From contig MWCY01000011.1 of NCBI GenBank assembly GCA_002070275.1, positions 19,847 to 83,846 on the forward strand: DNA of 64,000 nt, in the 5' to 3' direction. Of this stretch, positions 15,962 to 36,450 are shown one piece after another (positions within the stretch are counted from its first letter, which is position 1; every line of letters starts with the position of its first letter). A program made the translations under genes and the position numbers. The notes below the pieces were generated by a model. It saw only the letters and a program-made list of their open reading frames with translations, had not been told where the DNA came from and made no database searches. Source of the stretch: Candidatus Hydrogenedentes bacterium ADurb.Bin170. GTDB lineage: Bacteria > Hydrogenedentota > Hydrogenedentia > Hydrogenedentales > CAITNO01.

Positions 15962-16957
<996 letters not shown>

Positions 16958-18493: not shown

Positions 18494-18703
18494 AGATGTA
18501 CCCGAGGCACCGGGATGCACCGGGGCTTCGTATAAAAAGAACGGCATGGAACCGTTTGTGGGGCGCACACTCCTGCTCCGGGAAATAAAAGAGCCTTCGC
18601 CGGCGTTTTCCGGCATAACTGCACTGAATGCGTGTTTATCCGGTCTGTTCTTCGAACGGGAGGCAGACCGCAACCCTCATCTCAAAAAATAAGGAGTATC
18701 TCC

Positions 18704-19297
18704 ATGGCATTGGAAGTCACCAAAACAGCACCTGATTTTACGGCAACAGCAGTCATGCCCGACAACACCTTCAATGAGAAGTTTCGGCTCGCCAATTACC
18801 TTGGCAAGTATGTGGTTCTTTTCTTCTATCCGCTGGACTTTACCTTTGTATGTCCCTCTGAAATCATCGCTTTTGATAAAAAGCTGAAGGAATTCAAAGA
18901 GCGGAACTGTGAAGTGATCGGCGTTTCCGTAGACTCCCATTACTCTCACTGGGCGTGGAAAAACACCCCGGTGGACAAAGGCGGTATCGGCAATATCCAG
19001 TATCCGCTGGTCTCCGATCTGACCAAGCAGATTGCCCGCGACTACGGCGTGCTCTTCGATGAGTCAGTAGCACTGCGCGGACTGTTCCTCATTGATAAAG
19101 AGGGCATCGTCCGGCACGCCCTGATCAACGACCTGCCTCTGGGCCGCAGCGTGGACGAAGCGATCCGGGTGCTGGATGCGCTGCAGTTCCATGAAGAAAA
19201 CGGCGAGGTCTGCCCCGCCAACTGGCGCAAAGGGGAAGAAGGCATGAAAGCCACGGCCGATGGCGTCGCCAGCTATCTCGGAAAGCACGCCAAATAA
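18704..19297 (+). CDS. 2-Cys peroxiredoxin (AhpC/Tsa family)
   Basis: AAGGAG RBS. Peroxidatic Cys motif FTFVCPSEI and resolving Cys GEVCPANW. Confidence 0.9.
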   Translation: MALEVTKTAPDFTATAVMPDNTFNEKFRLANYLGKYVVLFFYPLDFTFVCPSEIIAFDKKLKEFKERNCEVIGVSVDSHYSHWAWKNTPVDKGGIGNIQYPLVSDLTKQIARDYGVLFDESVALRGLFLIDKEGIVRHALINDLPLGRSVDEAIRVLDALQFHEENGEVCPANWRKGEEGMKATADGVASYLGKHAK

Positions 19298-20153: not shown

Positions 20154-21296
20154 TCATGCGGATCCCTGCAGCATTTCTGAAAATGCACTCACCCGGGTGC
20201 GCAGCTGCTCTGACGGTTCCTGATTTTGTTCCACGGAAAGCGTAATCGCGGGAATCCCCGCCTCTTCCAGGGCTTTCATCATGGGCACATAATCAAAAGC
20301 CATAGGGTCGCAGAACTGTGTCAGCAGAAAGATCACACCATCCGCACCTGCTGCACGCACCCGCGCCAACAGCGCATGCCCCGGATGCCAGCCCGTTCGG
20401 TGAAAAGCAGGGCAGGGATCACGGTGCAGGCTGCGCCGGGTAAGCACCTCCAGCGTACTGCCGTCTTCCGCATCGGCACTGTAAAAAGCGCGATGACTCA
20501 CACACAGATCATCGCCGACAATGTGGCAGCCTGCCTCTTCAATAAGATCGATGAAGGCGGGCGGACTGCACATGCTGCCCGCAACAAACACCTTCGGAAG
20601 GGCGGCGCTATCGTCTGAAGCCGCCTCCTCTGCGGATTCCACGGCGGAAAGAAGGGCGTGAAGCGCTGCCAGATGCGCTTCCCTGTCCATCAGCTGCGCC
20701 GCAAGAGCAATCTGCATAACCCGGGCTCCGGTGAGTACCTTCGGGTAACGTGCGCGGAGTGCGTACAGCTGCTCCATGGCATTGCGCTGCTGCTGAAAAA
20801 GTGCGAGCGCTTCTTCAATACGCGCCTCCGCAATGGGACCTGTTTTTTCTTCGAGCAGACGCCGCACACGGGCAAGCTCAGCACCGTAGTACTTTTCTGC
20901 GAGAGCCCCGTCCGTCTGCGTCGGCACCGACACAATCAGCACCTCCGCATCGCCCCGATGTGCGCGCCACAGATCTGCCACGTTCTGCATGGTATCGCAG
21001 GTGTGGGAAAACAGGACAATATCGAGAAAGGGCCATTCTTTTTTCAGAGCACGGTCAAGCACACTGCGGGCATAACTGCATGAGAAGGTCTGCAACAGCT
21101 CATCCGCGTGGTGTGTGTCGCCTATACGGCTGAAAACACGGACAGGCAGATACCCCGCCGCATGAAGCAGTTCGAGCGGTGCATAAGAGCAGAGATACCC
21201 TGCCACCGGCTTTCCTGAAGCGGCTGCTTCCATGGCTTTGGCATAGGGTTCTTTTTCTGCAAAAGAAAAAGGAGCCATCAGAGACTGGATATCCAT
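20154..21296 (-). CDS. 2-hydroxyacyl-CoA dehydratase D-component family protein (HgdB/YjiM/double-cubane-cluster-protein-like)
   Basis: GYLCSYAPLELLHAAGYLPVRV is typical of PF06050. Multiple conserved Cys. A 1-nt gap separates it from the activase start. Confidence 0.75.
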   Translation of the reverse strand: MDIQSLMAPFSFAEKEPYAKAMEAAASGKPVAGYLCSYAPLELLHAAGYLPVRVFSRIGDTHHADELLQTFSCSYARSVLDRALKKEWPFLDIVLFSHTCDTMQNVADLWRAHRGDAEVLIVSVPTQTDGALAEKYYGAELARVRRLLEEKTGPIAEARIEEALALFQQQRNAMEQLYALRARYPKVLTGARVMQIALAAQLMDREAHLAALHALLSAVESAEEAASDDSAALPKVFVAGSMCSPPAFIDLIEEAGCHIVGDDLCVSHRAFYSADAEDGSTLEVLTRRSLHRDPCPAFHRTGWHPGHALLARVRAAGADGVIFLLTQFCDPMAFDYVPMMKALEEAGIPAITLSVEQNQEPSEQLRTRVSAFSEMLQGSA

Positions 21297-21404
21297 AGAC
21301 CTGATCCCTTTCAGCGGTTTTTCCGCAGCGTGTTCCGCCTGCCTCTTTATTTTCCGGAACAGGGCGGGATATTGCAAATCGGAGGGCTTCGGAAGCGGGA
21401 AGGC

Positions 21405-29213: not shown

Positions 29214-29555
29214 TTAATGATCGCAGACATTCTCTCCTGATTCCAGAGTGCCCTCCAGGTAGCGCTGCACCAGGGCTTCCACCGGATCGGCCGGTGCGCC
29301 GATAACCACTTCGATATTGTTCTCGGCAAAAAGCGCCTGGGCACGTGCCCCCATGCCGCCGGCAATAATCACCTGGGCATTGCGCTCAGCAAGCCAGCGC
29401 GGCAGCAGCCCGGGCTGATGCTCCGGCGCATCGACCACATCCACTTTCAGAATGCTTTTCTGCTCCGGATCCGTATCCACGAGCGCAAACTGGGCACAGT
29501 GCCCGAAATGAAGGGCAAGATGCCCCTGAACTACCGGTATAGCAACACGCATCAT
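29214..29555 (-). CDS. NifX/NafY/NifB-C-terminal family (dinitrogenase FeMo-cofactor-binding-like, PF02579) protein
   Basis: MRVAIPV...HFGHCAQFALVD...VIIAGGMGARAQALFAENNIEVV is the canonical PF02579 pattern. Confidence 0.85.
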   Translation of the reverse strand: MMRVAIPVVQGHLALHFGHCAQFALVDTDPEQKSILKVDVVDAPEHQPGLLPRWLAERNAQVIIAGGMGARAQALFAENNIEVVIGAPADPVEALVQRYLEGTLESGENVCDH

Positions 29556-29613
29556 TTTCTCTCCTGTTGTTTTTCAGAGTCGGGCGACACATCCGGTGCA
29601 ACCTCGACCTTCC

Positions 29614-30012
29614 TTATGCTTCTGTTTTCATCTGCTTTACTGATGCCGATGCCTGATAATTTTCCAGCGCAGCACGCAGTGTATTCGATGCCAGCAGTGC
29701 ACAGTGCCGGTGCGCTTCCGGCATACCGCCCAGCGCATTCAGAATATCCTGCTGTGAGATTTCTTTTGCTTCCGCAACGGGCCTGCCTTCTGCAAGTTCT
29801 GTCGCCATGCTTCCGCAGGCGCGGGAAGGACCGCAGCCTGTCGTGGTAAACGAAGCGGCACTCACAATACCTTCATCGACCTGCACCCAGAACTCCATCG
29901 TGTCTCCGCAGGGACCGGTTATTCTGGCGTAGCCGTCCGGCTCCTGCAGTTCATCATAATTTCTTGGATTTCTGAAACGTTCCAATGCCTTGGCGCTGTA
30001 GTTTTCTTCCAT
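29614..30012 (-). CDS. IscU/NifU N-terminal-domain-like Fe-S cluster scaffold
   Basis: NPRNYDEL...ITGPCGDTMEF...TTGCGPSRACGSMATE...HCALLASN, with the three scaffold Cys and the His. Confidence 0.85.
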   Translation of the reverse strand: MEENYSAKALERFRNPRNYDELQEPDGYARITGPCGDTMEFWVQVDEGIVSAASFTTTGCGPSRACGSMATELAEGRPVAEAKEISQQDILNALGGMPEAHRHCALLASNTLRAALENYQASASVKQMKTEA

Positions 30013-30041
30013 CTGACTTGTTGTCCCGTATCTAAAAAAGA

Positions 30042-30980
30042 TCAGCCGCCGTTTCCGCTTTCTGCATCTCCGGCATCAGGCGCTGTACCGTCAAGCATTG
30101 AAGCCACCCGGCACCAGATTTCACGGATCGCCTCAGCTGCGGCACCGCCATAATCAAGAACAGTTTTCCCCGCAACCTGCGCCTCCGTCATCCGGCGGTC
30201 ATAACCGATCCGTCCGACCGGACGGGCGCCCATTGAAAGAGCGACCGCTTCAATGCTTTCCGTCAATTCAGAATTGATATCCCACTTGTTGACACACACC
30301 GCCACGGGCACATTAAAATGCTTCGCCAGCCGGGCAACCCGCTCCAGATCGTGCTGTCCGCTTAACGTCGGTTCCGTGATGATCAATGCGAGCGATGTGC
30401 CTGTAATGGAAGCGATCACCGGACAGCCGATTCCGGGAGGACCGTCGATAATCAGTTTTGCAATCCCCTCCTTTTCCGCTCTGTCTCTTGCGGCACGGCG
30501 CACCGTCGACACCAGCTTGCCCGAGTTTTCCGCGGCAATACCCAGCTTCGCATGAACCATGGGCCCGCAGGGTGTCGAAGAAACATACCACTCCCCTGCC
30601 GTACATTCAGGAAAATCAATGGCGGCGGCAGGGCACCAGTCAACACAGACGCCACAGCCCTCACAGGACAGCGGATCCACTGTATACCGGACATCCGCTC
30701 CCGTATCCTCCCGCCGGATACCCTCAAAGCGGCACCGTTCATAACAGTCTCCGCATCGGGTGCAGTCCTCCTGCCTGATTACCGCCTGATGCCCGCTCCT
30801 GAATTCATAATGCTCTTCCGGCTCCGGGTGCAGCAGCAAATGCAGGTCGGCCGCATCCACGTCACAGTCTGCCAGCACCGCCCTCCCGGCAAGAGACGCA
30901 AAGGCGGCCGTAAGGCTTGTCTTGCCCGTTCCGCCTTTTCCGCTGATGATGACCAGCTCCCGGATATCATGCCTGCTCAT
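30042..30980 (-). CDS. MinD-superfamily P-loop ATPase with inserted 2x[4Fe-4S] ferredoxin domain (COG1149-like), copy 1
   Basis: Deviant Walker A ISGKGGTGKTS. CTRCGDCYERC and CEGCGVCVDWCP ferredoxin motifs. Confidence 0.85.
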   Translation of the reverse strand: MSRHDIRELVIISGKGGTGKTSLTAAFASLAGRAVLADCDVDAADLHLLLHPEPEEHYEFRSGHQAVIRQEDCTRCGDCYERCRFEGIRREDTGADVRYTVDPLSCEGCGVCVDWCPAAAIDFPECTAGEWYVSSTPCGPMVHAKLGIAAENSGKLVSTVRRAARDRAEKEGIAKLIIDGPPGIGCPVIASITGTSLALIITEPTLSGQHDLERVARLAKHFNVPVAVCVNKWDINSELTESIEAVALSMGARPVGRIGYDRRMTEAQVAGKTVLDYGGAAAEAIREIWCRVASMLDGTAPDAGDAESGNGG

Positions 30981-31920
30981 AGCGTTCCCCTATACCGAAA
31001 AACAGCTTGTTTTCCCGTTCCATAACACACAGCCTCCCCTCTTTTACCAGCCTGTCCAACAGCTTCGCCGTTTCAAGCCGATGAAAACCCAGCCCTTCCG
31101 CAATCTCCTCCAGGGGACAGGGACGCCGCCTCAGCATTTCCAGCACAGGTGCCTCCTGAGGCAGCAGCACGCCGCCGCTGTCCGGAATGTAACGGGGCGA
31201 AATAATTTCCGCCTCAGGTTCAAAAAAAGAAACATAGCGCTCCATCACGGAAAAAGAAACCGCTTTTACACGGCTCATGGCGGGCGGACGCTCCACCGTA
31301 TTGATCTGCACTTTATCCGGCCGGATCAGCCGCACCTGTGCCGCAATTTCGCGCACGCTGTCTTCATCATCATTGATACCGTCCATTAGAAAGACTTCGA
31401 GCCACAGGGCACCGGAAAACTCATTTCGGAAAGCAATCAGCCCTTCCAGCATTTTTGCAAAAGAAAGTCCCGCGACAGGCCGGTCTATTTTCTGAAAAAG
31501 ACGCTCATTTCCCGCATCCAGCGAGGGTAAAACAACATCCGCATGAAGGAGCGCATCCCGCACTTCCTGCTGCCAGAAGAGCGCACCGTTGGTAATGACT
31601 GCAACAGGAACAGACGTCAGTGATTTTATTTTCTGAATCAGCTCTCCGAGTCCCGTATGCAGGGCAGGCTCCCCGGCGCCCGAAATCGTTATGTAATCCG
31701 GCGCCGGATGTGTGGCAAGAAAAGCAGCCACTTCCTCCAGAACGGCTTCCACGTCCACATAGGCATCGCGCTGCATGGTGTGGCAGGTGGTGCGCCCCTG
31801 CTCGCAGTAGATGCAGTCATAGGGGCAGGTTTTCGCCGGAATCAGATCCACGCCCAGCGATCTGCCAAGGCGGCGTGATACTACAGGACCAAAGATGAAG
31901 GAATGTTTACGGGAAGTCAT
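30967..31920 (-). CDS. radical SAM protein (COG0731-like) with C-terminal winged-helix domain
   Basis: FGPVVSRRLGRSLGVDL...CPYDCIYC (CxxxCxxC). A C-terminal LEEIAEGLGFHRLETAKLLDRLVKEGRL wHTH. Overlaps its neighbours by 14 and 4 bp. Confidence 0.85.
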   Translation of the reverse strand: MTSRKHSFIFGPVVSRRLGRSLGVDLIPAKTCPYDCIYCEQGRTTCHTMQRDAYVDVEAVLEEVAAFLATHPAPDYITISGAGEPALHTGLGELIQKIKSLTSVPVAVITNGALFWQQEVRDALLHADVVLPSLDAGNERLFQKIDRPVAGLSFAKMLEGLIAFRNEFSGALWLEVFLMDGINDDEDSVREIAAQVRLIRPDKVQINTVERPPAMSRVKAVSFSVMERYVSFFEPEAEIISPRYIPDSGGVLLPQEAPVLEMLRRRPCPLEEIAEGLGFHRLETAKLLDRLVKEGRLCVMERENKLFFGIGERYEQA

Positions 31921-32786
31921 GAACGCACCGCCTTTCCTTTCTCACGCTGCCCCGCACCGTCCCGAATTTTTCCGAGCAATTCCATAAAGGATGCTCTGTA
32001 TTCAGGCAACGCATCAACGATCAGGGCACCTCCGGAGTAGGCAGCTGCAATACGGCGATCCTCGGGAAGTGTCAGCAATACCGGAATATCTTCTGCATCA
32101 CAATAATCCCGCACCCTGGCATCGCCCACGTCCGCACGGTTAATCACTACACCGAAAGGAAGCCCGAGGGTGCGAACCGTCTCCACAGCAAGCTGCAGAT
32201 CATTGAGACAGAATGGAGTCGGTTCGGTAACCAGCACAACGTAATCCATGCCCTTCAGGGTCGTGATCACAGGACAGGAGGTCCCCGGCGGCGCATCATA
32301 AATAATCACTGCCGCATCGGGCGCTTTCGCTTTTACCGCTCGGATCAAAGGCGGCGACATAGCAGCGCCCACGCGCAGCGTCCCCTGCACAAAATGTAAA
32401 TCGCCCGCCATTCCACGGCTGACCGTACCGATCGCATGGGAAGATTCAGTCAAGGCTTTTTCAGGGCAGGCAGGCACACAGCCGCCGCAACCGTGACATA
32501 GCTCCGCAAAAACAATCAGCTTTCCCGCCACACAGGCAAGCGCATTGAAACGACAGACTTCCACGCATTTGCCGCAGCCGGTACATAACGCCGGATCCAC
32601 CTGCGGCACAGGAATTCCCGCAGTTTCAGAAAATGAAAGCTCCGGCTTCAGAAAAAGATGACCGTTTGGCGCCTCCACATCGCAATCCACATAAACAGTT
32701 TCGTCACCCTCCGTAAGGGCAGCCAGATTGGCGGCAACGGTCGTTTTGCCTGTTCCGCCTTTTCCTGATGCGATGGCTATGTGCAT
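31917..32786 (-). CDS. MinD-superfamily P-loop ATPase with inserted 2x[4Fe-4S] ferredoxin domain, copy 2 (start MHIAIASGKGGTGKT; the track ORF is over-extended)
   Basis: IASGKGGTGKTT Walker A, plus CTGCGKCVEVC and CHGCGGCVPACP. Confidence 0.8.
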   Translation of the reverse strand: MHIAIASGKGGTGKTTVAANLAALTEGDETVYVDCDVEAPNGHLFLKPELSFSETAGIPVPQVDPALCTGCGKCVEVCRFNALACVAGKLIVFAELCHGCGGCVPACPEKALTESSHAIGTVSRGMAGDLHFVQGTLRVGAAMSPPLIRAVKAKAPDAAVIIYDAPPGTSCPVITTLKGMDYVVLVTEPTPFCLNDLQLAVETVRTLGLPFGVVINRADVGDARVRDYCDAEDIPVLLTLPEDRRIAAAYSGGALIVDALPEYRASFMELLGKIRDGAGQREKGKAVRS

Positions 32787-33006
32787 GAAAGAAAAAATAT
32801 CCTGATGGTTCTGCCTGAATGGAAGTTTCCGTTTTTCAGGACACTGTCCCGGCAATTCCGAAACCTGTCGGGGCCGTCGGGAGCGACTCCGGTTCCGGAA
32901 TTGCCGATTGAACGGACAGTGCGTCAGTAAGGAGAAAAGAGAAACTCTATAATTAACATGCCTGTCGGGGGTCAGACAAAGGGTCTGAGCAGGAGCAGTT
33001 GCCTGC

Positions 33007-33375
33007 TCAAACCCAATGGCCATCCACAGCGGCAGCATGCATTTCCGCGAGGGCATCACGGCGCCACGCCTGCAGCGCCTCCGAAATCGGTACTTCATCC
33101 GAATGATAAACCCGTATGGATGATGCAGCAAATACAGTAAAGGCTTTGGGGCCGCAATGCCCTGTAACGAGAGCACTTGCTCCCGCTTTCACTACGGCCT
33201 GCGCTGCCTGTATGCCTGCTCCCTGAGGCGCGTTGACATTCTGCTGATTCTCCACCACCGTGTACTCGTCTGTGTCGGTGTCATAAATTAGAAAGCCATC
33301 GGCACGCCCGAAACGGGAACATACAAGCGCATTCAGATCTTTTCCTGATGTCGAAAATGCAATTTTCATAATCAT
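33007..33375 (-). CDS. NifX/NafY-like (PF02579) protein
   Basis: MKIAFSTSGKDL...FGRADGFLIYD...ALVTGHCGPKAF. Confidence 0.75.
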   Translation of the reverse strand: MIMKIAFSTSGKDLNALVCSRFGRADGFLIYDTDTDEYTVVENQQNVNAPQGAGIQAAQAVVKAGASALVTGHCGPKAFTVFAASSIRVYHSDEVPISEALQAWRRDALAEMHAAAVDGHWV

Positions 33376-33418
33376 TTCTTTTCCGGCAGCCGTGCAGGGC
33401 ACTGCTGCTTCCGCTGCG

Positions 33419-33703
33419 TCAGCGGTCAGATGACTTTTCAAGAGAAGCCAGACGGTCCTGTACTTCTTCCAGTGCGCCCTGAAGCCGGGCGGCCTGTTCG
33501 CGCAGGGACTGTGACTCTGTTTCGGAACTTAAACCGAAACCACGACCGAAACCACGACCGAAACCCATACCGCCGCGCATACCGCGGCCTGAACCCGCAC
33601 CACGGCGCGCAGCCATACCACGACCGTCACGCAGGCACCCGCCTGCACCACGCCCCGTCAGGGCGCCTTTTCCGCAAGGTCCTGTTCCATCTCTTCCAGG
33701 CAT
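33419..33703 (-). CDS. DUF5320-like Gly/Arg-rich protein with C-terminal coiled coil
   Basis: MPGRDGTGPCGKGALTGRGAGGC... Gly/Arg-rich N-terminus. LREQAARLQGALEEVQDRLASLEK coiled coil. This family is usually found beside PF02579 genes. Confidence 0.65.
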   Translation of the reverse strand: MPGRDGTGPCGKGALTGRGAGGCLRDGRGMAARRGAGSGRGMRGGMGFGRGFGRGFGLSSETESQSLREQAARLQGALEEVQDRLASLEKSSDR

Positions 33704-33706
33704 AAT

Positions 33707-34393
33707 CTAGTTCCTTTCTTCTTTGTCCAGACTGCCTCTGTTCAGCAGCCATTCTTTCACATCCATCGGAGACATCTGCTTCTGCTGCGACAGCGCCCGG
33801 AACGTCGATCCGGGATCCGCCGTGAAACCCGCTTCCTGCAGGCGACTCAGTGTGTCTTCCAGAAGAAGCCCGGCATCGTCACAAAATTCCTGCACGGTCA
33901 TGCGACCGACACCTGTACCATGACCTGATGCAGGATGCACCGCCTCTGCAGAGAGCGCACCGGCACAGCTTCCAGCTTTCTCCTCTTCGGTCAATGCTGT
34001 AAGGAAGCTGAACGGCGGCACTTCAAAAATGGCACCTGCCGACAGCAGCAGAAAAAGAAGGAGTGCCGTGACCGCTTCTTTTTTCAAATGAAGCCGCTGT
34101 TTTAAAAACAGATAGCGCAACAGAATGCGCCAGTTGAAGTACACATGAATCAACCCGGCAACAACAAAAGTGCAGGCCATAATGATGTGCAGGGCATTCC
34201 ACTGATCTTTCGACAGCAGCAAAACACGCCAGCCTGTTTCCCGGGCAATGCGACAGGACGGAGCAAGGTAAAGCACGAGACCGGACACCGCCAGTGTCAG
34301 AAAAACCAGGCTGATCAGAAAACTGGTAAGCCCTCTGCCGTGCCAGGGCGTTTTCTGTTTGTCTGTTGCCTCTTGTGTGCTCACTGTCATCAT
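33707..34393 (-). CDS. small integral membrane protein (4 TM, conserved His in helices; DUF4405-like?) with soluble C-terminal domain
   Basis: Hydrophobic helices LTSFLISLVFLTLAVSGLVLYL, LHIIMACTFVVAGLIHVYF, ALLLFLLLSAGAIF. Confidence 0.65.
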   Translation of the reverse strand: MMTVSTQEATDKQKTPWHGRGLTSFLISLVFLTLAVSGLVLYLAPSCRIARETGWRVLLLSKDQWNALHIIMACTFVVAGLIHVYFNWRILLRYLFLKQRLHLKKEAVTALLLFLLLSAGAIFEVPPFSFLTALTEEEKAGSCAGALSAEAVHPASGHGTGVGRMTVQEFCDDAGLLLEDTLSRLQEAGFTADPGSTFRALSQQKQMSPMDVKEWLLNRGSLDKEERN

Positions 34394-34399
34394 GCTACC

Positions 34400-34906
34400 T
34401 CACTCATGCCCGAAGGGGCGGTTGCAGCCGGGACATACGGCTGATTCCGGATGCCTCCGGCAGTTGGGAAGACGGCAGCCGCACTCAGGACATACGGAAT
34501 GCCCTCCAGAAAACCCGGGTTTGCCTCTGCCGTATCCCTGTCCTTTTCCGGCGCCGCACCGGCGCCCGCCGGAACCGCAGCCCGGCATGGCAAAAGCGCC
34601 GCTGCAGACAGTGCCTGCGAGCACTGCTGCCAGTATTTCTTCAACATCACCGGAGATAAACGGGATCAGCTGAATGCCGGCGGCAGAAAGCCAGTCGGCA
34701 AAACGCCGGGATACAGCGCCGCACACCAGCTGCCTTACGCCCAGTGCTTCAAGCTGTGAAAGCAGATTCTGTACGGTGCCTCCGGCAATTTCTTTTTCCT
34801 GACGGGACACCACAACCCCTTGCTGCAGCTCAACGACAAGAAACGTCCGGGCTGTATCCAGCACCGGAGAAATGCGTTGTTCCCTTACTGTCAGTGCAAT
34901 CTTCAT
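34400..34906 (-). CDS. NifX/NafY-like domain fused to Cys/Gly-rich zinc-ribbon-like tail
   Basis: An N-terminal PF02579-like MKIALTV...LVCGAVSRRF...LIPFISG. The tail GCGSGGRRCGAGKGQGYGRGKPGFSGGHSVCPECGCRLPNCRRHPESAVCPGC. Confidence 0.8.
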   Translation of the reverse strand: MKIALTVREQRISPVLDTARTFLVVELQQGVVVSRQEKEIAGGTVQNLLSQLEALGVRQLVCGAVSRRFADWLSAAGIQLIPFISGDVEEILAAVLAGTVCSGAFAMPGCGSGGRRCGAGKGQGYGRGKPGFSGGHSVCPECGCRLPNCRRHPESAVCPGCNRPFGHE

Positions 34907-34931: not shown

Positions 34932-34947
34932 GAGCATACACCGTGCC
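34932..34947 (-). promoter_or_regulatory. candidate sigma-54 (-24/-12) promoter TGGCAC-GGTGT-ATGCT for the NifX/MinD/radical-SAM operon
   Basis: The minus strand reads TGGCACGgtgtATGCT with correct N5 spacing. GG and GC are conserved and the -12 reads ATGC instead of TTGC. It lies ~25 nt upstream of the ATG at 34906. Confidence 0.5.
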
Positions 34948-35020
34948 AATGATCAAAATATTTTTAACATACTGATATTAAATGAATTACAGGAGAGCGG
35001 GATCGCATTTTCGGCGAGAT

Positions 35021-35088
35021 AAGTCGCATTAATGCGACTATTAGAGATGCAACAGTCGCAATAGTGCGACTTATTTGCGACGCGTCGC
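35021..35088. promoter_or_regulatory. three dyad-symmetric GTCGCA/TGCGAC sites (candidate enhancer/UAS for the adjacent sigma-54 activator)
   Basis: AGTCGCAttaaTGCGACT (35021-35038), AGTCGCAatagTGCGACT (35053-35070), TGCGACgcGTCGCA (35075-35088). Centres are ~32 bp apart, at about -108 and -140 from the -12 element. Confidence 0.5.
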
Positions 35089-36450
35089 AGGAGGGAGCGT
35101 CAGGCCCAGAGCACGAACCTTGCGGAACAGCGTGCTCTTATGCATGCCCAGCAGATCAGCCGCTTTCTGCCTGTTTCCATCGCACGCTTTCAGGGCATCG
35201 AGAATGGCACGGGCCTCCGCTTCCTGAACCGCATTGTTCAGCGACGGAGCAGTCCCAGCGCCGGAGCGGCGGTAAAAAGCCTGCATCGCTTCAGGCAGAC
35301 ATCCGACATCAATGAGCGGCCTGTCACACAGCACGAAGGCATGTTCAATGCTGTTCTCCAGTTCACGGATATTACCCGGATAGTCGTAGGACATCAGCAG
35401 GCGCATTGCCTCCGCAGTGACCCCTTCTACCGTTTTATTCTGCCGGAGATGATTGTTACGACGGATAAACCGGTCCACGAGCAGGGGAATATCTTCCCGG
35501 CGCTCCCGGAGCGGCGGCAGTTCCAGCCTGATCACATTGATTCTGTAATAAAGATCCTGCCTGAAAAGTCCTTCCTGAACCAGTGCGCCGAGCGATTTGT
35601 TGGTGGCGGCAATGATGCGCACATCTGTGTGAAATGCGCGGGTTGCGCCCAGCGGCTCATACTGCTTTTCCTGGAGCACCCGCAGCAGCCGAACCTGCAT
35701 GGCAGGGCTGATATCCCCTATTTCATCCAGAAAAAGGCTCCCTTTTTCCGCCAGAGCAAAGCGGCCGGGCTTGTCTTTGTCCGCTCCGGTAAAAGCACCT
35801 GCCTGATACCCGAAGAGCTCGGACTCCAGCAGCGTATCAGGCAATGCGCCGCAGTTGATGCCAAGAAAAGGTCCTTTGTGCCGGCCGCTCAGATCATGAA
35901 TTGCCCGTGCCAGCAGCTCCTTGCCGGTACCTGTTTCTCCTTCTATGACAACAGGCACCTCGCTGGCTGCCACCTGCGGCAGCATCTGAAAGAGTTTTTC
36001 CATGGCGGCACTTCTGCTGACCATGTCGCCCAAGTCATAGCGATGTTCAATTTCACGCCGCAGCTCTTCCACAAGACTCAGATCACGAAAGGTTTCCACA
36101 CCTCCCACAACATTTCCCCTTTCATCCTTCAGCAGTGCAGTTGAAAGACTGATGGGGATGCGCTCTCCTGCCGCATCGACGATATAGACAGATTTGTTAA
36201 TGATGGGTTCCCCCGAATCCAGCGTGTGACGCAGGGCGCATTCCTCTTCGCAGGTGCTGGCGCGAAAAACTTCGCAGCAGCGCCTGCCCAGTGCTTCTTC
36301 CCGGGGAATACCGGTGATCTCTTCGGCGGCGCGGTTGAAGGAGGTAATACGCCATCCATGATCTACCGTGAATACTCCGTCGGAAATACTTTCCAGAATA
36401 ATCTCCGTGCTCTCCGGCGGCAGCATATCTTTGGAAAAAGGCTGATCCAT
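35071..36450 (-). CDS. sigma-54-dependent transcriptional activator (PAS - AAA+ - Fis-type HTH), PAS domain with Cys4 cluster
   Basis: GAFTGA motif, ESELFGY, Walker A GETGTGKE, and a C-terminal HTH. The PAS has CC-x6-C-x3-C (RRCCEVFRASTCEEEC). Confidence 0.9.
   Translation of the reverse strand: MDQPFSKDMLPPESTEIILESISDGVFTVDHGWRITSFNRAAEEITGIPREEALGRRCCEVFRASTCEEECALRHTLDSGEPIINKSVYIVDAAGERIPISLSTALLKDERGNVVGGVETFRDLSLVEELRREIEHRYDLGDMVSRSAAMEKLFQMLPQVAASEVPVVIEGETGTGKELLARAIHDLSGRHKGPFLGINCGALPDTLLESELFGYQAGAFTGADKDKPGRFALAEKGSLFLDEIGDISPAMQVRLLRVLQEKQYEPLGATRAFHTDVRIIAATNKSLGALVQEGLFRQDLYYRINVIRLELPPLRERREDIPLLVDRFIRRNNHLRQNKTVEGVTAEAMRLLMSYDYPGNIRELENSIEHAFVLCDRPLIDVGCLPEAMQAFYRRSGAGTAPSLNNAVQEAEARAILDALKACDGNRQKAADLLGMHKSTLFRKVRALGLTLPPATRRK

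What the first reader, a model, noticed from the sequence alone, without database searches (positions are those of the whole stretch)
29214..34906. Nine-gene operon: three NifX-like proteins, two MinD/ferredoxin ATPases, a radical SAM–wHTH protein, an IscU-like scaffold, DUF5320 and a membrane protein
Nine tightly packed minus-strand genes with 4–14 bp overlaps form one operon. Three encode PF02579 NifX/NafY-like cofactor-binding domains (29214–29555, 33007–33375, 34400–34906). Two are MinD-type P-loop ATPases, each carrying an inserted 2x[4Fe-4S] ferredoxin. The others are a radical SAM enzyme with a C-terminal winged helix, an IscU/NifU-type scaffold, a Gly/Arg-rich DUF5320-like protein and a 4-TM protein. 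No nitrogenase structural genes (nifHDK/ENB) are present. So this is not a nif cluster, but it has the parts of a metallocluster assembly line: a scaffold, a radical SAM, cofactor carriers and ATP-driven Fe-S insertases. PF02579 plus MinD-ferredoxin pairs recur in anaerobes and archaea with no assigned function. This expanded, sigma-54-controlled version in a PVC-type bacterium looks like an uncharacterised metallocofactor or Fe-S maturation and delivery system.
Basis: partly seen in the sequence, partly recalled or inferred. Interest (0 to 1): 0.88.

Follow-up and report, generated by a model that had tools for sequence, protein, structure and literature searches.

The report
Expanded orange-protein (ORP) iron-sulfur gene cluster
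This nine-gene operon is a Hydrogenedentota version of the sigma-54/OrpR-controlled "orange protein" (ORP) cluster known from Desulfovibrio, an iron-sulfur handling complex whose cellular job is still unknown, here carrying a radical SAM enzyme, an IscU scaffold, DUF5320 and a membrane protein but lacking the usual Mrp ATPase domain.

Summary
The packing is looser than described. Only two junctions overlap, and a 220-nt strongly folded spacer with a terminator-like hairpin separates gene 4 from gene 5. The organism is a Candidatus Hydrogenedentota MAG (FCB group), not PVC.

The system is not unassigned. It is a homologue of the Desulfovibrio ORP cluster:
- Gene 4 best matches the D. gigas orange protein.
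- Genes 5 and 7 are the Orp3/Orp4-type MinD-ferredoxin pair.
- Gene 9 is a free-standing MrpORP Di-Nase domain.
- Gene 1 is the Orp7-position protein.
- The upstream activator carries OrpR's Fe-S-binding cysteine motif, next to a -24/-12 promoter and two perfect palindromes.

Of 80 ORP loci from other genomes, 61 have ORP followed by the two ATPases in the same order.

The radical SAM, DUF5320 and IscU genes also recur with these genes in several phyla. Sister lineages carry a true IscU-MrpORP fusion where this window has separate IscU and Di-Nase genes and no Mrp domain.

Most likely role: redox-gated Fe-S assembly, carriage or storage. The exact function is unknown, as it is for ORP itself. 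Verdict: a new variant of a known kind, of moderate interest.

The parts
35071..36450 (-). OrpR-type activator: PAS domain, sigma54 AAA+ domain and Fis-type HTH, 459 aa
   Evidence: Pfam PAS_9 3.9e-14, Sigma54_activat 2.3e-67, HTH_8 1.1e-10. The PAS domain carries C58-x-E60-x6-C67-x3-C71. This is the spacing of the C52/E54/C61/C65 Fe-S ligand set of DvH OrpR (PMC8359166). The same motif is present in 24 of the 51 PAS-domain matches in the fetched loci, including those of the activators encoded beside the ORP-type genes, and Desulfovibrio sp. L026. Full-length identity to activators in those loci is 39-61%, median 51%.
35022..35071 (.). Two perfect 18-bp palindromes AGTCGCA-N4-TGCGACT (35022-35039 and 35054-35071), centres 32 bp apart; candidate activator binding sites (UAS)
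   Evidence: two exact matches and nothing else exact in 64 kb (0.22 expected at up to 2 mismatches). They lie 74-123 bp upstream of the -24 element. Related GTCGCA/TGCGAC palindromes occur upstream of the g1-like gene in Hydrogenedentes loci L007 and L090. The published DvH OrpR site is also a CGC-core palindrome, GGGCGYRTTTTGCGCCC. That type is seen in L089.
34933..34948 (-). Sigma-54 (-24/-12) promoter TGGCACGGTGTATGCT
   Evidence: one mismatch to TGGCAC-N5-TTGCW, the best match in the window, 27 nt upstream of the g1 ATG. Equivalent -24/-12 elements precede g1-like genes in L090, L059, L086, L041, L018 and L083.
34400..34906 (-). g1: Orp7-position PF02579 protein with an 'MPGC' motif, a Gly/Arg/Cys-rich cationic tail and a CPxCG...CPGC zinc-ribbon-like end (168 aa)
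   Evidence: PF02579 1.4e-8. The tail has pI 9.0, 17 Gly and 9 Cys. An alignment with genes at the same position (between the activator and ORP) in Desulfobacterota, Nitrospirota and Desulfovibrio loci shows a conserved MPGC motif and, in some, the zinc ribbon. The family has 2519 representatives at E <= 1e-3.
33707..34393 (-). g2: DUF4405 membrane protein with three hydrophobic segments and a ~95-aa soluble C-terminus (228 aa)
   Evidence: DUF4405 2.2e-14, weak cytochrome-b561-like hit. Three Kyte-Doolittle segments. The same g1-like then DUF4405 order occurs in Hydrogenedentes L090. A DUF4405 gene sits directly upstream of a g6-type radical SAM gene in Verrucomicrobia L092.
33419..33703 (-). 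g3: DUF5320 protein, with a Gly/Arg-rich cationic N-terminal half and an acidic helical C-terminus (94 aa)
   Evidence: PF17253 1.3e-13. Residues 1-60 have pI 12, 23 Gly and 10 Arg. DUF5320 genes lie in ORP-type or radical SAM neighbourhoods in L007, L009, L023, L059, L086 and L094.
33007..33375 (-). g4: orange protein (Orp8-type) PF02579 protein (122 aa)
   Evidence: The best solved-structure match is D. gigas ORP 2WFB, 3.6e-17. Next are TM1816 (1RDU) and MTH1175 (1EO1). 41% identity to the ORP fragment.
32787..33014 (-). Structured intercistronic spacer: a 13-bp terminator-like hairpin overlapping the g4 stop (32981-33014) and a long hairpin with 16-nt arms at 32850-32865 and 32891-32906
   Evidence: MFE -90 kcal/mol against -63 +/- 4.6 for shuffles (z = -5.8). 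No Rfam family matched. No sigma54 or sigma70 consensus in it. It is 98.75-100% conserved in strain-level contigs but has no similarity to the equivalent regions of L007 or L094.
31917..32786 (-). g5: MinD-type ATPase with an inserted 2x[4Fe-4S] ferredoxin, Orp3/Orp4-type paralogue A (289 aa)
   Evidence: CbiA 4.4e-16 and Fer4 2e-14. GKGGTGKT motif plus CTGCGKCVEVC and CHGCGGCVPAC. Gene callers start it at MHIAIASGKGG. Orthologues (38-58% identity) are the first of the two ATPases in 70 of 80 ORP loci.
30967..31920 (-). g6: single-cluster radical SAM enzyme of the COG0731 family with a C-terminal winged helix (317 aa), overlapping both ATPase genes
   Evidence: PF04055 5.3e-16. CPYDCIYC motif. 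More than 6300 homologues, which JGI names 'wyosine synthetase (radical SAM superfamily)'. It is far below the NCBIfam cut-offs for TYW1 and MoaA. AF2 model pLDDT 88. Foldseek gives only generic matches: PFL-AE 1.8e-12, NifB 1.9e-10, TYW1, viperin.
30042..30980 (-). g7: MinD-type ATPase with an inserted 2x[4Fe-4S] ferredoxin, paralogue B (312 aa)
   Evidence: CbiA 1.3e-9 and Fer4_21 4.5e-8. 31% identity to g5. All 8000 scored candidates reached E <= 1e-10, many at 60-66% identity. AF2 pLDDT 88.5. Structural neighbours are archaeal MinD, FlhG/FleN, then NifH. The ferredoxin insert follows the invariant DCDVDAADLH segment. P0397 is a natural fusion of a g7-type protein with a g9-type domain.
29614..30012 (-). 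g8: IscU/NifU-N type Fe-S scaffold (132 aa)
   Evidence: NifU_N 3.6e-29. NifU_clost 3.5e-31, below the equivalog cut-off. Cys35, Cys60 and Cys104 sit in GPCGD, TGCG and HRHC contexts. 53% identity to the N-terminal domain of the 541-aa IscU-MrpORP fusion of L007.
29214..29555 (-). g9: free-standing MrpORP-type Di-Nase (PF02579) domain (113 aa)
   Evidence: It matches positions 265-365 of NCBIfam MrpORP at 1.2e-35. 69% identity, end to end, with the C-terminal domain of the L007 fusion. It carries the published Di-Nase signatures HFGHC, PEHQPGLLP and a terminal CDH (PMC6345978).

Best explanation
The locus is a Hydrogenedentota member of the ORP (orange protein) gene-cluster family. It has been rearranged into one co-directional sigma-54 operon with extra parts.

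**Proposed working**
1. At low redox potential, the OrpR-type activator binds the two palindromes and opens the -24/-12 promoter. Its PAS domain is predicted to hold a redox-sensitive [4Fe-4S] cluster.
2. The IscU-type scaffold (g8) supplies Fe-S clusters.
3. The clusters pass to small PF02579 carriers. These are g9 (MrpORP Di-Nase type), g4 (ORP/Orp8 type) and g1 (Orp7-position type with a Cys-rich cationic tail).
4. The clusters also pass to a heterodimer of two ancient paralogous MinD-type ATPases (g5 and g7, equivalent to Orp3/Orp4). Each carries 2x[4Fe-4S] inserted just after switch I. ATP binding and hydrolysis would therefore be coupled to the clusters, driving either electron transfer or cluster hand-over.
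5. The radical SAM enzyme g6 is translationally coupled between the two ATPase genes. It probably modifies a partner protein or a carrier-bound cluster.
6. DUF5320 and the g1 tail (Gly/Arg-rich, cationic) may hold anionic iron-sulfide species, as the IssA tail does.
7. DUF4405 ties the assembly to the membrane.

**Shown here**: homology, synteny, motifs, the promoter and the palindromes.
**Shown in Desulfovibrio only**: complex formation, Fe-S transfer, and redox sensing by OrpR.
**Inferred**: every step involving g6, g3, g2 and g1, the direction of cluster flow, and the final client.
For: **Core homology**
- g4 best matches D. gigas ORP 2WFB.
- g9 matches the MrpORP C-terminal domain at 1.2e-35 and carries its published motifs.
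- g5 and g7 have the Orp3/Orp4 architecture (PMC6345978).

**Synteny in 80 ORP loci, mostly Desulfobacterota**
- 70 have a g5-type gene followed by a g7-type gene.
- 61 have ORP-A-B, 57 add a Di-Nase gene, and 30 add IscU.

**Regulator**
- The C-x-E-x6-C-x3-C motif matches the OrpR ligand set.
- There is a sigma54 promoter and two palindromes.
- The same layout (activator, -24/-12 element, g1-like gene) occurs in other phyla.

**Sister Hydrogenedentes loci L007 and L094**
- Both carry MinD-Fd, radical SAM, MinD-Fd, ferritin and an IscU-Mrp-Di-Nase fusion.
- The L007 fusion passes the MrpORP equivalog cut-off, 554 against 450 bits.
- g8 and g9 are 53% and 69% identical to its two ends.

**Other links**
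- A natural fusion joins a g7-type ATPase to a g9-type domain.
- g6-type radical SAM genes sit next to ORP or Mrp genes in Desulfobacterota L041, L055, L059 and L087. They sit next to PF02579 in Armatimonadota L008. They lie within a few genes of DUF5320 and Mrp genes in Holophaga L009, and next to DUF4405, ferritin and Mrp genes in Verrucomicrobia L092.
- Ca. Desulfaltia L059 has almost the same gene families in almost the same order.
Against: - No experiment exists for this organism.
- The cellular function of the ORP complex is unknown even in Desulfovibrio, where a cell-division role was proposed.
- The Mrp/NBP35 P-loop domain, the only part shown to transfer Fe-S to Orp3/4/8, is absent from the operon and from the whole window.
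- No sulfur donor (cysteine desulfurase) is encoded in the window.
- The 220-nt structured spacer may split expression.
- Nothing identifies the substrate of g6. Its fold matches are generic.
- The likeness of the g1 tail to DUF5320 and IssA is compositional only (BLAST E = 27, no HMM hit).
- The D. vulgaris Hildenborough locus itself was not retrieved. Comparison rests on other Desulfobacterota and Desulfovibrio loci and on published descriptions.
Confidence: 0.7

Rival explanations
1. Iron-sulfide storage and mobilisation. The PF02579 proteins with cationic Gly/Arg-rich tails, together with DUF5320, nucleate and hold thioferrate-like or other polynuclear Fe-S material under reducing, sulfidic conditions, as P. 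furiosus IssA does. The MinD-ferredoxin ATPases and IscU draw on this store to rebuild clusters.
For: - IssA is a PF02579 domain plus a cationic Gly-rich tail that stores thioferrate and reconstitutes ferredoxin. Its clade includes the tail-less MTH1175 (PMC5524996).
- g4 matches MTH1175 at 1.7e-12.
- The g1 tail has pI 9.0. g3 residues 1-60 have pI 12, 23 Gly and 10 Arg.
- The ORP paralogue in L059 carries a GRGMGRGMGKGGG tail.
- Ferritin and peroxiredoxin genes sit inside sister clusters L007, L092 and L094.
Against: - The tails are not homologous to IssA or to each other by any test run.
- g4 and g9 have no tail.
- This reading does not explain the radical SAM enzyme.
- It partly overlaps with the best explanation rather than excluding it.
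Confidence: 0.2
2. A dedicated assembly line for a complex, non-cubane metallocluster, working on nitrogenase-cofactor logic without nitrogenase. The radical SAM enzyme remodels clusters held on NifX-like carriers, the MinD-ferredoxin pair plays a NifH-like ATP-driven reductase or insertase role, and the product is delivered to an unknown client enzyme.
For: - PF02579 is the NifB/NifX/NafY cofactor-binding domain.
- NifB structures rank third and fourth among fold matches of g6.
- NifH is among the structural neighbours of g7.
- g6 overlaps both ATPase genes.
- Radical SAM plus PF02579 adjacency recurs across phyla.
- D. gigas ORP binds a Mo-Cu-S cluster.
Against: - g6 has one CxxxCxxC motif and only three other cysteines, so it lacks the auxiliary K-cluster sites of NifB.
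- No NifB model appears among its NCBIfam hits.
- PFL-AE, TYW1 and viperin match its fold equally well.
- No client enzyme and no Mo, W, Cu or Ni transporter is linked in the window.
- Most ORP loci lack the radical SAM gene: 73 of 80.
Confidence: 0.12
3. A cell-division or spatial-positioning device. The two MinD-like ATPases act mainly as membrane-associated positioning proteins, as first proposed for the Desulfovibrio ORP complex. The Fe-S parts serve as redox input.
For: - Inactivating orpR in DvH gives morphological defects.
- MrpORP localises to the cell pole.
- Orp3 and Orp4 are reported to have MinD-like amphipathic C-terminal helices.
- The nearest fold neighbours of g7 are MinD and FlhG/FleN.
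Against: - There is no MinC/MinE-like or divisome gene in the operon.
- The g7 C-terminus (…DGTAPDAGDAESGNGG) shows no obvious amphipathic helix.
- Every recurrent neighbour is a metal, Fe-S or redox protein: IscU, Mrp, ferritin, peroxiredoxin, HydG and radical SAM.
Confidence: 0.08
4. Thiomolybdate or thiotungstate and copper handling. The ORP-type proteins sequester Mo/W-Cu-S species formed in sulfidic habitats.
For: - The closest solved relative of g4 is the D. gigas orange protein.
- Homologues of that protein harbour a non-covalent [S2MoS2CuS2MoS2] cluster.
Against: - No Mo, W or Cu transport or Moco genes were found among the ORFs scanned.
- No Moco riboswitch or any other Rfam match occurs in the locus.
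- The other eight genes point to Fe-S chemistry.
Confidence: 0.05

Closest known systems
ORP (orange protein) gene cluster and complex of Desulfovibrio vulgaris Hildenborough: orp3-orp4-orp5, orpR, orp7-orp8-orp9
   Same: - Two paralogous MinD-type ATPases with 2x[4Fe-4S].
- Several small PF02579 proteins, including an ORP/Orp8 homologue and an Orp7-position protein.
- An MrpORP-type Di-Nase domain.
- A PAS-sigma54 activator with the same Cys/Glu motif, a -24/-12 promoter and palindromic upstream sites.
- Found in an anaerobe.
   Different: - One co-directional operon instead of two divergent ones.
- No Mrp/NBP35 P-loop domain.
- A COG0731-type radical SAM-winged-helix gene lies between the two ATPase genes.
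- DUF5320, DUF4405 and IscU genes are added.
- The palindrome sequence differs: AGTCGCA-N4-TGCGACT against GGGCGYRTTTTGCGCCC.
- The host is Hydrogenedentota rather than Desulfobacterota.
MrpORP (Orp9), NCBIfam NF041136
   Same: g9 is a full-length match to its C-terminal Di-Nase domain, with the HFGHC, P-x-H-x-PG-x-x-P and terminal CDH motifs. Sister genomes carry a true MrpORP fused to IscU at the same place in the cluster.
   Different: The window has no Mrp P-loop or CXXC domain. IscU and the Di-Nase domain are separate genes 58 nt apart.
OrpR, the Fe-S PAS sigma54 enhancer-binding protein
   Same: - PAS-AAA+-HTH domain order.
- C-x-[DE]-x6-C-x3-C motif.
- Position next to its target operon.
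- Palindromic sites upstream of a sigma54 promoter.
   Different: - The half-site sequence differs.
- Only one target promoter is evident.
- Cluster binding and redox response are untested here.
IssA iron-sulfur storage protein of Pyrococcus furiosus
   Same: A PF02579 globular domain with a cationic, glycine-rich, probably disordered tail (the g1 tail). The same composition appears in the separate DUF5320 protein g3.
   Different: - No detectable tail homology.
- The g1 tail is Cys-rich with a zinc-ribbon-like end, whereas the IssA tail has one Cys and many aromatic residues.
- No thioferrate evidence.
Nitrogenase cofactor assembly (NifB, NifX/NafY, NifH)
   Same: The domain vocabulary: radical SAM, PF02579 carrier, and a deviant-Walker-A dimeric ATPase with Fe-S.
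   Different: - No NifB auxiliary cluster sites.
- No NifEN or NifHDK.
- The ATPases carry ferredoxin inserts rather than a bridging cluster.
- The system is very widely distributed (all 8000 scored g7 relatives at E <= 1e-10; no nif genes in this window).
ISC/NIF-type IscU scaffold
   Same: g8 has the NifU_N fold, three Cys ligands and the His preceding the third Cys.
   Different: - Below the equivalog cut-offs.
- MPEAHRHC is in place of the LPPVK motif.
- No partner cysteine desulfurase or chaperones nearby.
- Fused to MrpORP in relatives.

Membership tests
ORP gene cluster (Desulfovibrio type) | An ORP/Orp8 homologue (small PF02579 protein related to D. gigas ORP) | tested here: met
   g4 against PDB 2WFB: E 3.6e-17, 41% identity.
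ORP gene cluster (Desulfovibrio type) | Two paralogous MinD-type ATPases, each with two [4Fe-4S] ferredoxin motifs (Orp3/Orp4) | tested here: met
   g5 and g7 have a deviant Walker A motif and 2x CxxCxxCxxxC each, and are 31% identical to one another. Their orthologues are adjacent, in the same order, in 70 of 80 ORP loci.
ORP gene cluster (Desulfovibrio type) | Control by a cognate PAS-sigma54 activator and a sigma54 promoter | tested here: met
   Activator gene, -24/-12 element and two palindromes. This is sequence evidence only.
ORP gene cluster (Desulfovibrio type) | An Mrp/NBP35-Di-Nase protein (Orp9/MrpORP) encoded in the cluster | tested here: not met
   Only the Di-Nase domain (g9) is present. 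No Mrp homologue was found anywhere in the 64-kb window by tblastn. Sister loci L007 and L094 do have it.
ORP gene cluster (Desulfovibrio type) | The proteins form a physical complex (Orp3, 4, 5, 8, 9) | not testable with these tools
   Known only from DvH pull-downs. Indirect support comes from a natural fusion of a g7-type ATPase with a g9-type domain.
OrpR | Three conserved PAS cysteines (C52, C61, C65) plus an acidic residue at position 54, which bind a [4Fe-4S] cluster | tested here: met
   C58, E60, C67 and C71 have identical spacing. Cluster binding itself is untested.
OrpR | Binds the palindrome GGGCGYRTTTTGCGCCC | tested here: not met
   The window has a different palindrome, AGTCGCA-N4-TGCGACT. 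The published type is seen in L089. A divergent half-site is expected for a distant orthologue.
MrpORP (NF041136) | Whole-protein score at or above 450 bits, with a deviant Walker A motif and a CXXC P-loop domain | tested here: not met
   g9 scores 123.5 bits and covers only profile positions 265-365.
MrpORP Di-Nase domain | CxHFGHCE-type motif, a proline-rich PPPHxPGxxP motif and a C-terminal CDH | tested here: met
   g9 has LALHFGHCAQ, APEHQPGLLP and a terminal VCDH. The first Cys of the motif is absent.
IssA | A PF02579 domain plus a long cationic, Gly- and aromatic-rich C-terminal tail, storing thioferrate | tested here: inconclusive
   The g1 tail is cationic and Gly-rich but Cys-rich, with few aromatic residues. 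There is no sequence homology evidence, the IssA sequence was not in hand, and the chemistry is untestable here.
NifB | A radical SAM domain with additional conserved Cys/His ligands for the K1 and K2 clusters, and a NifB equivalog score | tested here: not met
   g6 has six Cys, three of them in the CxxxCxxC motif. No NifB model is among its NCBIfam hits. Fold similarity is generic.
TYW1 / COG0731 'wyosine synthetase' (the name given by JGI) | TIGR03972 equivalog score of at least 318 bits | tested here: not met
   33.7 bits. The name is a COG-level label, not a function.
MinD cell-division ATPase | MinD equivalog score and a partnership with MinC/MinE | tested here: not met
   minD_arch scores 69 and 48 bits against a cut-off of 202. 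No MinC or MinE is nearby.
IscU/NifU-N scaffold | The NifU_N domain with three Cys ligands | tested here: met
   PF01592 at 101.9 bits against a cut-off of 22. Cys35, Cys60 and Cys104 are present. It is below the NCBIfam equivalog cut-offs.

The most novel reading that the evidence does not exclude
The conserved module comprises a COG0731-type radical SAM-winged-helix enzyme, PF02579 carriers, the paired MinD-ferredoxin ATPases, DUF5320 and IscU/Mrp. It may be a widespread anaerobe machine that builds or remodels a non-standard iron-sulfur or heterometal-sulfur cluster for an unidentified client. That would make it a nitrogenase-independent relative of the NifB/NifX/NifH assembly logic. The function of the Desulfovibrio ORP complex has been open since 2011, and that complex would then be a reduced form of this machine.
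Probability: 0.12. Interest if true: 0.8.

Novelty: new variant of a known kind. Interest (0 to 1): 0.42.

Why it matters
The ORP complex is conserved across very many anaerobes. All 8000 scored relatives of g7 reached E <= 1e-10, and the g1 family has about 2500 representatives. It is tightly regulated by redox potential, yet its function is unknown.

This locus and its relatives show that the Desulfovibrio cluster studied so far is a trimmed version of a larger gene set. That set repeatedly includes a radical SAM enzyme, an IscU scaffold (sometimes fused to MrpORP), DUF5320, ferritin, peroxiredoxin and, in one sister lineage, HydG.

This shifts the weight of evidence from cell division towards iron-sulfur supply, storage or repair under reducing conditions. 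It also names concrete new partners to test: g6, DUF5320 and the Orp7-type tail.

The Mrp-less arrangement here is a natural experiment on whether IscU can replace the Mrp domain as the cluster donor.

Tried and rejected
- **Riboswitch or known RNA in the 220-nt spacer or elsewhere in the locus.** No Rfam match at E <= 1.
- **Spacer as the remnant of the PvlArgDC gene found at that position in L094 and L007.** tblastn found nothing.
- **Second sigma54 or sigma70 promoter in the spacer.** None matched the consensus.
- **Homology between the g1 tail and DUF5320.** BLAST E = 27 and no Pfam hit. I kept it only as a compositional likeness.
- **Function of g6 from its fold.** Foldseek gives PFL-AE, NifB, TYW1 and viperin at similar scores, which is not informative. 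NCBIfam hits are all far below cut-off.
- **Solved structure of a MinD-ferredoxin fusion.** None exists. Hits split into MinD and ferredoxin parts.
- **Reading Fievet et al. 2011 (PMC3133258), which defined the ORP complex.** The paper is not held. I used its description in later papers.
- **Retrieving the D. vulgaris Hildenborough locus itself.** The single genome scan returned the 80 best ORP loci, mostly other Desulfobacterota and a few Desulfovibrionaceae.
- **The 'cysteine desulfurase' I first assumed in L007.** It is a cystathionine gamma-lyase/synthase family enzyme, not NifS.
- **Wider homologue search for g2.** It found only six relatives. One of the two contexts looked up is unrelated.
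- **Literature on DUF5320, COG1149 or COG1433 function.** Nothing relevant turned up.

Full report
**1. What is in the sequence**

Nine minus-strand ORFs lie between 29214 and 34906.

| Gene | Coordinates | Family |
|---|---|---|
| g1 | 34400-34906 | PF02579 |
| g2 | 33707-34393 | DUF4405 |
| g3 | 33419-33703 | DUF5320 |
| g4 | 33007-33375 | PF02579 |
| g5 | 31917-32786 | MinD/CbiA with two CxxCxxCxxxC motifs |
| g6 | 30967-31920 | Radical_SAM |
| g7 | 30042-30980 | MinD/CbiA with two CxxCxxCxxxC motifs |
| g8 | 29614-30012 | NifU_N |
| g9 | 29214-29555 | PF02579 |

The same nine genes are called on independent metagenome and MAG contigs.

The packing is looser than described. Only g5/g6 (4 bp) and g6/g7 (14 bp) overlap. 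The other junctions are gaps of 3 to 58 nt.

g4 and g5 are 220 nt apart. That spacer folds far better than shuffled sequence (z = -5.8). It begins with a 13-bp terminator-like hairpin at the g4 stop codon. It matches no Rfam family.

g2 has three, not four, strongly hydrophobic segments.

The C-terminal winged helix of g6 is supported by an AF2 model (pLDDT 88) and by a weak MarR_2 hit.

**2. The organism**

Identical proteins are deposited as Candidatus Hydrogenedentes/Hydrogenedentota MAG proteins. NCBI taxonomy places that phylum in the FCB group, so the host is not a PVC bacterium. A DUF1559/N-methyl protein at 15962-16957 may have prompted the PVC guess.

The rest of the window is housekeeping: IF-2, NusA, CorA, shikimate genes, SAH hydrolase and others. 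No nitrogenase, hydrogenase or Mo/W genes were found among the ORFs scanned.

**3. Regulation**

Directly upstream on the same strand is a 459-aa PAS-sigma54-HTH activator.

A -24/-12 element, TGGCACGGTGTATGCT, lies 27 nt before the g1 start. It is the best match in the window.

Two perfect 18-bp palindromes, AGTCGCA-N4-TGCGACT, lie 74-123 bp further upstream, 32 bp apart. There is no other exact copy in 64 kb.

**4. Identity: the ORP system**

NCBIfam pointed to MrpORP. g9 matches its C-terminal domain at 1.2e-35.

The literature describes the Desulfovibrio vulgaris ORP cluster (PMC6345978 and PMC8359166):
- Orp3 and Orp4 are MinD-type proteins with two [4Fe-4S] motifs.
- Orp5 and Orp8 are Di-Nase-type small proteins. 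Orp8 is the orange protein, and Orp5 is described as homologous to a [2Fe-2S]-binding protein.
- Orp9 (MrpORP) is an Mrp/NBP35 domain plus a PF02579 'Di-Nase' domain.

The window matches this point by point:
- g4's best solved relative is D. gigas ORP 2WFB (3.6e-17).
- g5 and g7 have the Orp3/4 architecture.
- g9 carries the published Di-Nase motifs HFGHC, PxHxPGxxP and a terminal CDH.
- The activator has C58-x-E60-x6-C67-x3-C71, the same spacing as OrpR.

**5. Comparative test**

A genome scan seeded with ORP sequences returned 80 loci, mostly Desulfobacterota. I mapped the window proteins onto them by tblastn.

| Feature | Loci (of 80) |
|---|---|
| g5-type ATPase immediately followed by a g7-type ATPase | 70 |
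| ORP-A-B | 61 |
| ORP-A-B plus a Di-Nase gene | 57 |
| ORP-A-B plus Di-Nase plus IscU | 30 |
| Mrp domain within 10 kb | 22 |
| IscU-like gene | 42 |
| g6-type radical SAM gene | 7 |

The median identity to g5 and g7 orthologues is 47-49%. The two ATPases are therefore ancient paralogues kept in a fixed order, which suggests a heterodimer.

Activators beside these loci share the Cys/Glu motif. It is present in 24 of the 51 PAS-domain matches, including Desulfovibrio sp. L026. Sigma54 promoters precede the g1-like gene in several phyla. L089 shows the published GGGCGC...GCGCCC palindrome type.

The gene between the activator and ORP is g1-like. That is the position of orp7 in DvH. It has a conserved 'MPGC' motif, then a Gly/Arg-rich stretch and in some lineages a zinc ribbon. 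This subfamily has about 2500 representatives.

**6. The extra genes are not unique to this organism**

- Ca. Desulfaltia L059 has this order: activator, g1-like, DUF5320, g6-type radical SAM, ORP with a Gly/Arg tail, Mrp, MinD-Fd, MinD-Fd, ORP, Di-Nase, IscU, IscU.
- Sister Hydrogenedentes loci L007 and L094 keep the MinD-Fd, radical SAM, MinD-Fd sandwich (in L094 a phosphatidylserine decarboxylase gene also lies between the first ATPase and the radical SAM gene). They add ferritin, a 1-Cys peroxiredoxin and a 541-545-aa IscU-Mrp-Di-Nase fusion. The L007 fusion passes the MrpORP equivalog cut-off (554 against 450 bits).
- g8 and g9 are 53% and 69% identical to the two ends of that fusion. The window lineage therefore has IscU and Di-Nase as separate genes and no Mrp domain, here or elsewhere in the 64 kb.
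- g6-type enzymes also sit next to PF02579 in an Armatimonadota genome, and within a few genes of DUF5320 and Mrp genes in Holophaga. In a Verrucomicrobia contig one sits next to DUF4405, ferritin and Mrp genes, with a PAS-sigma54 activator gene nearby. In one Chitinivibrionales contig the enzyme stands alone.
- A natural fusion joins a g7-type ATPase to a g9-type domain.

**7. Mechanism**

*Shown by sequence.* The locus has an OrpR-type activator, a sigma54 promoter, an IscU scaffold with its ligands, three PF02579 carriers of three distinct subtypes, two SIMIBI-class ATPases and a single-cluster radical SAM enzyme. In the ATPases the ferredoxin insert follows the invariant DCDVDAADLH segment. 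I take that segment to be switch I by analogy with MinD and NifH.

*Shown only in Desulfovibrio.* Orp3/4/5/8/9 form a complex. MrpORP passes Fe-S to Orp3/4/8. OrpR switches off as the redox potential rises.

*Inferred.* Under reducing conditions the operon is induced. IscU builds clusters that load the carriers and the ATPase pair. ATP turnover gates electron or cluster transfer. g6 modifies a partner or a bound cluster. The cationic Gly/Arg segments of g3 and g1 hold anionic Fe-S species, as proposed for IssA (PMC5524996). DUF4405 provides a membrane link.

I put about 0.85-0.9 on membership of the ORP cluster family. I put about 0.5 on the Fe-S trafficking or storage role as stated. The reported figure of 0.7 is for the combined statement.

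**8. Rivals**

- IssA-like iron-sulfide storage overlaps with the best explanation. Composition and the ferritin and peroxiredoxin neighbours support it. No homology test does.
- A NifB-like complex-cluster assembly line is the most novel reading. It is weakened because g6 lacks auxiliary cluster ligands and any NifB signal. Its fold matches are generic. In addition, 73 of 80 ORP loci lack the enzyme.
- A cell-division role has only the Desulfovibrio phenotype behind it.
- Mo/Cu thiometallate handling rests on g4's relative alone.

**9. Novelty and interest**

What is new:
- The phylum.
- The single-operon layout with a structured internal spacer.
- The loss of the Mrp domain, with IscU and Di-Nase retained.
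- The evidence that a COG0731-type radical SAM enzyme, DUF5320, IscU and DUF4405 belong to an extended ORP gene set across phyla. I found no paper describing this.

This is a new variant of a known kind. It is a useful lead on the open question of what ORP does, but it is not a categorically new system.

Noticed in passing
window 32787-33014 (-): The 220-nt spacer between g4 and g5 folds into a 13-bp hairpin at the g4 stop codon and a second hairpin with 16-nt arms (z = -5.8). It has no Rfam match and no similarity to the equivalent region in sister lineages. It could set different expression levels for the ORP half and the ATPase half of the operon.
   Followed up: partly
L007:3489-4901: In a related Hydrogenedentes contig, the ORP-type cluster contains a gene that passes the HydG equivalog cut-off (483 against 312 bits). 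HydG is the [FeFe]-hydrogenase H-cluster maturase. The same cluster also holds ferritin, a 1-Cys peroxiredoxin, a CoA-binding protein and a cystathionine gamma-lyase-family enzyme. This hints at a link between ORP genes and hydrogenase or Fe-S maturation.
   Followed up: partly
L007:11672-13297 and L094:9541-11178: These are 541-545-aa three-domain proteins: IscU, Mrp/NBP35 and Di-Nase. The L007 copy is a bona fide MrpORP by NCBIfam, with a scaffold domain fused to its N-terminus and a Cys-rich linker (CGSCATDSC). I did not find this architecture described in the papers read.
   Followed up: partly
P0397 (protein from the search): A 417-aa natural fusion of a g7-type MinD-ferredoxin ATPase with a g9-type Di-Nase domain (HFGHCE ... 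CDH). The same domain can therefore be attached to either kind of P-loop ATPase.
   Followed up: no
window 18632-19297 (+): A 1-Cys peroxiredoxin (AhpC-TSA plus 1-cysPrx_C) lies about 10 kb from the operon. It is the same family that sits inside the ORP-type cluster in L007 and L094.
   Followed up: no
window 34400-34906 (-), residues 100-168 of g1; L059:4003-4605; L018:13696-14376: Proteins at the Orp7 position share an 'MPGC' motif right after the PF02579 domain, then a Gly/Arg-rich stretch. In several phyla they also share a CPxCG...CPxCG zinc-ribbon-like end. In L089 the ORF appears to run on into the ORP gene, which may be a fusion or may be an artefact of my ORF extraction.
   Followed up: partly
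L092:4362-9766: A Verrucomicrobia contig has this order: DUF4405, g6-type radical SAM, ferritin-like, Mrp/ParA, MamS/MamX-like, FmdE, ARMT1-like (DUF89), with a PAS-sigma54 activator nearby. ARMT1-like genes also recur in L009 and L094.
   Followed up: no
window 15962-16957 (-): A protein with a prepilin-type N-methylation motif plus DUF1559 (SBP_bac_10). A similar gene flanks the cluster in L094.
   Followed up: no
window 20154-21377 (-): A 2-hydroxyglutaryl-CoA dehydratase D-component family protein (HGD-D, 1.7e-78). Enzymes of this family are Fe-S enzymes activated by an ATP-dependent reductase. It is a conceivable but untested client within 10 kb of the operon.
   Followed up: no
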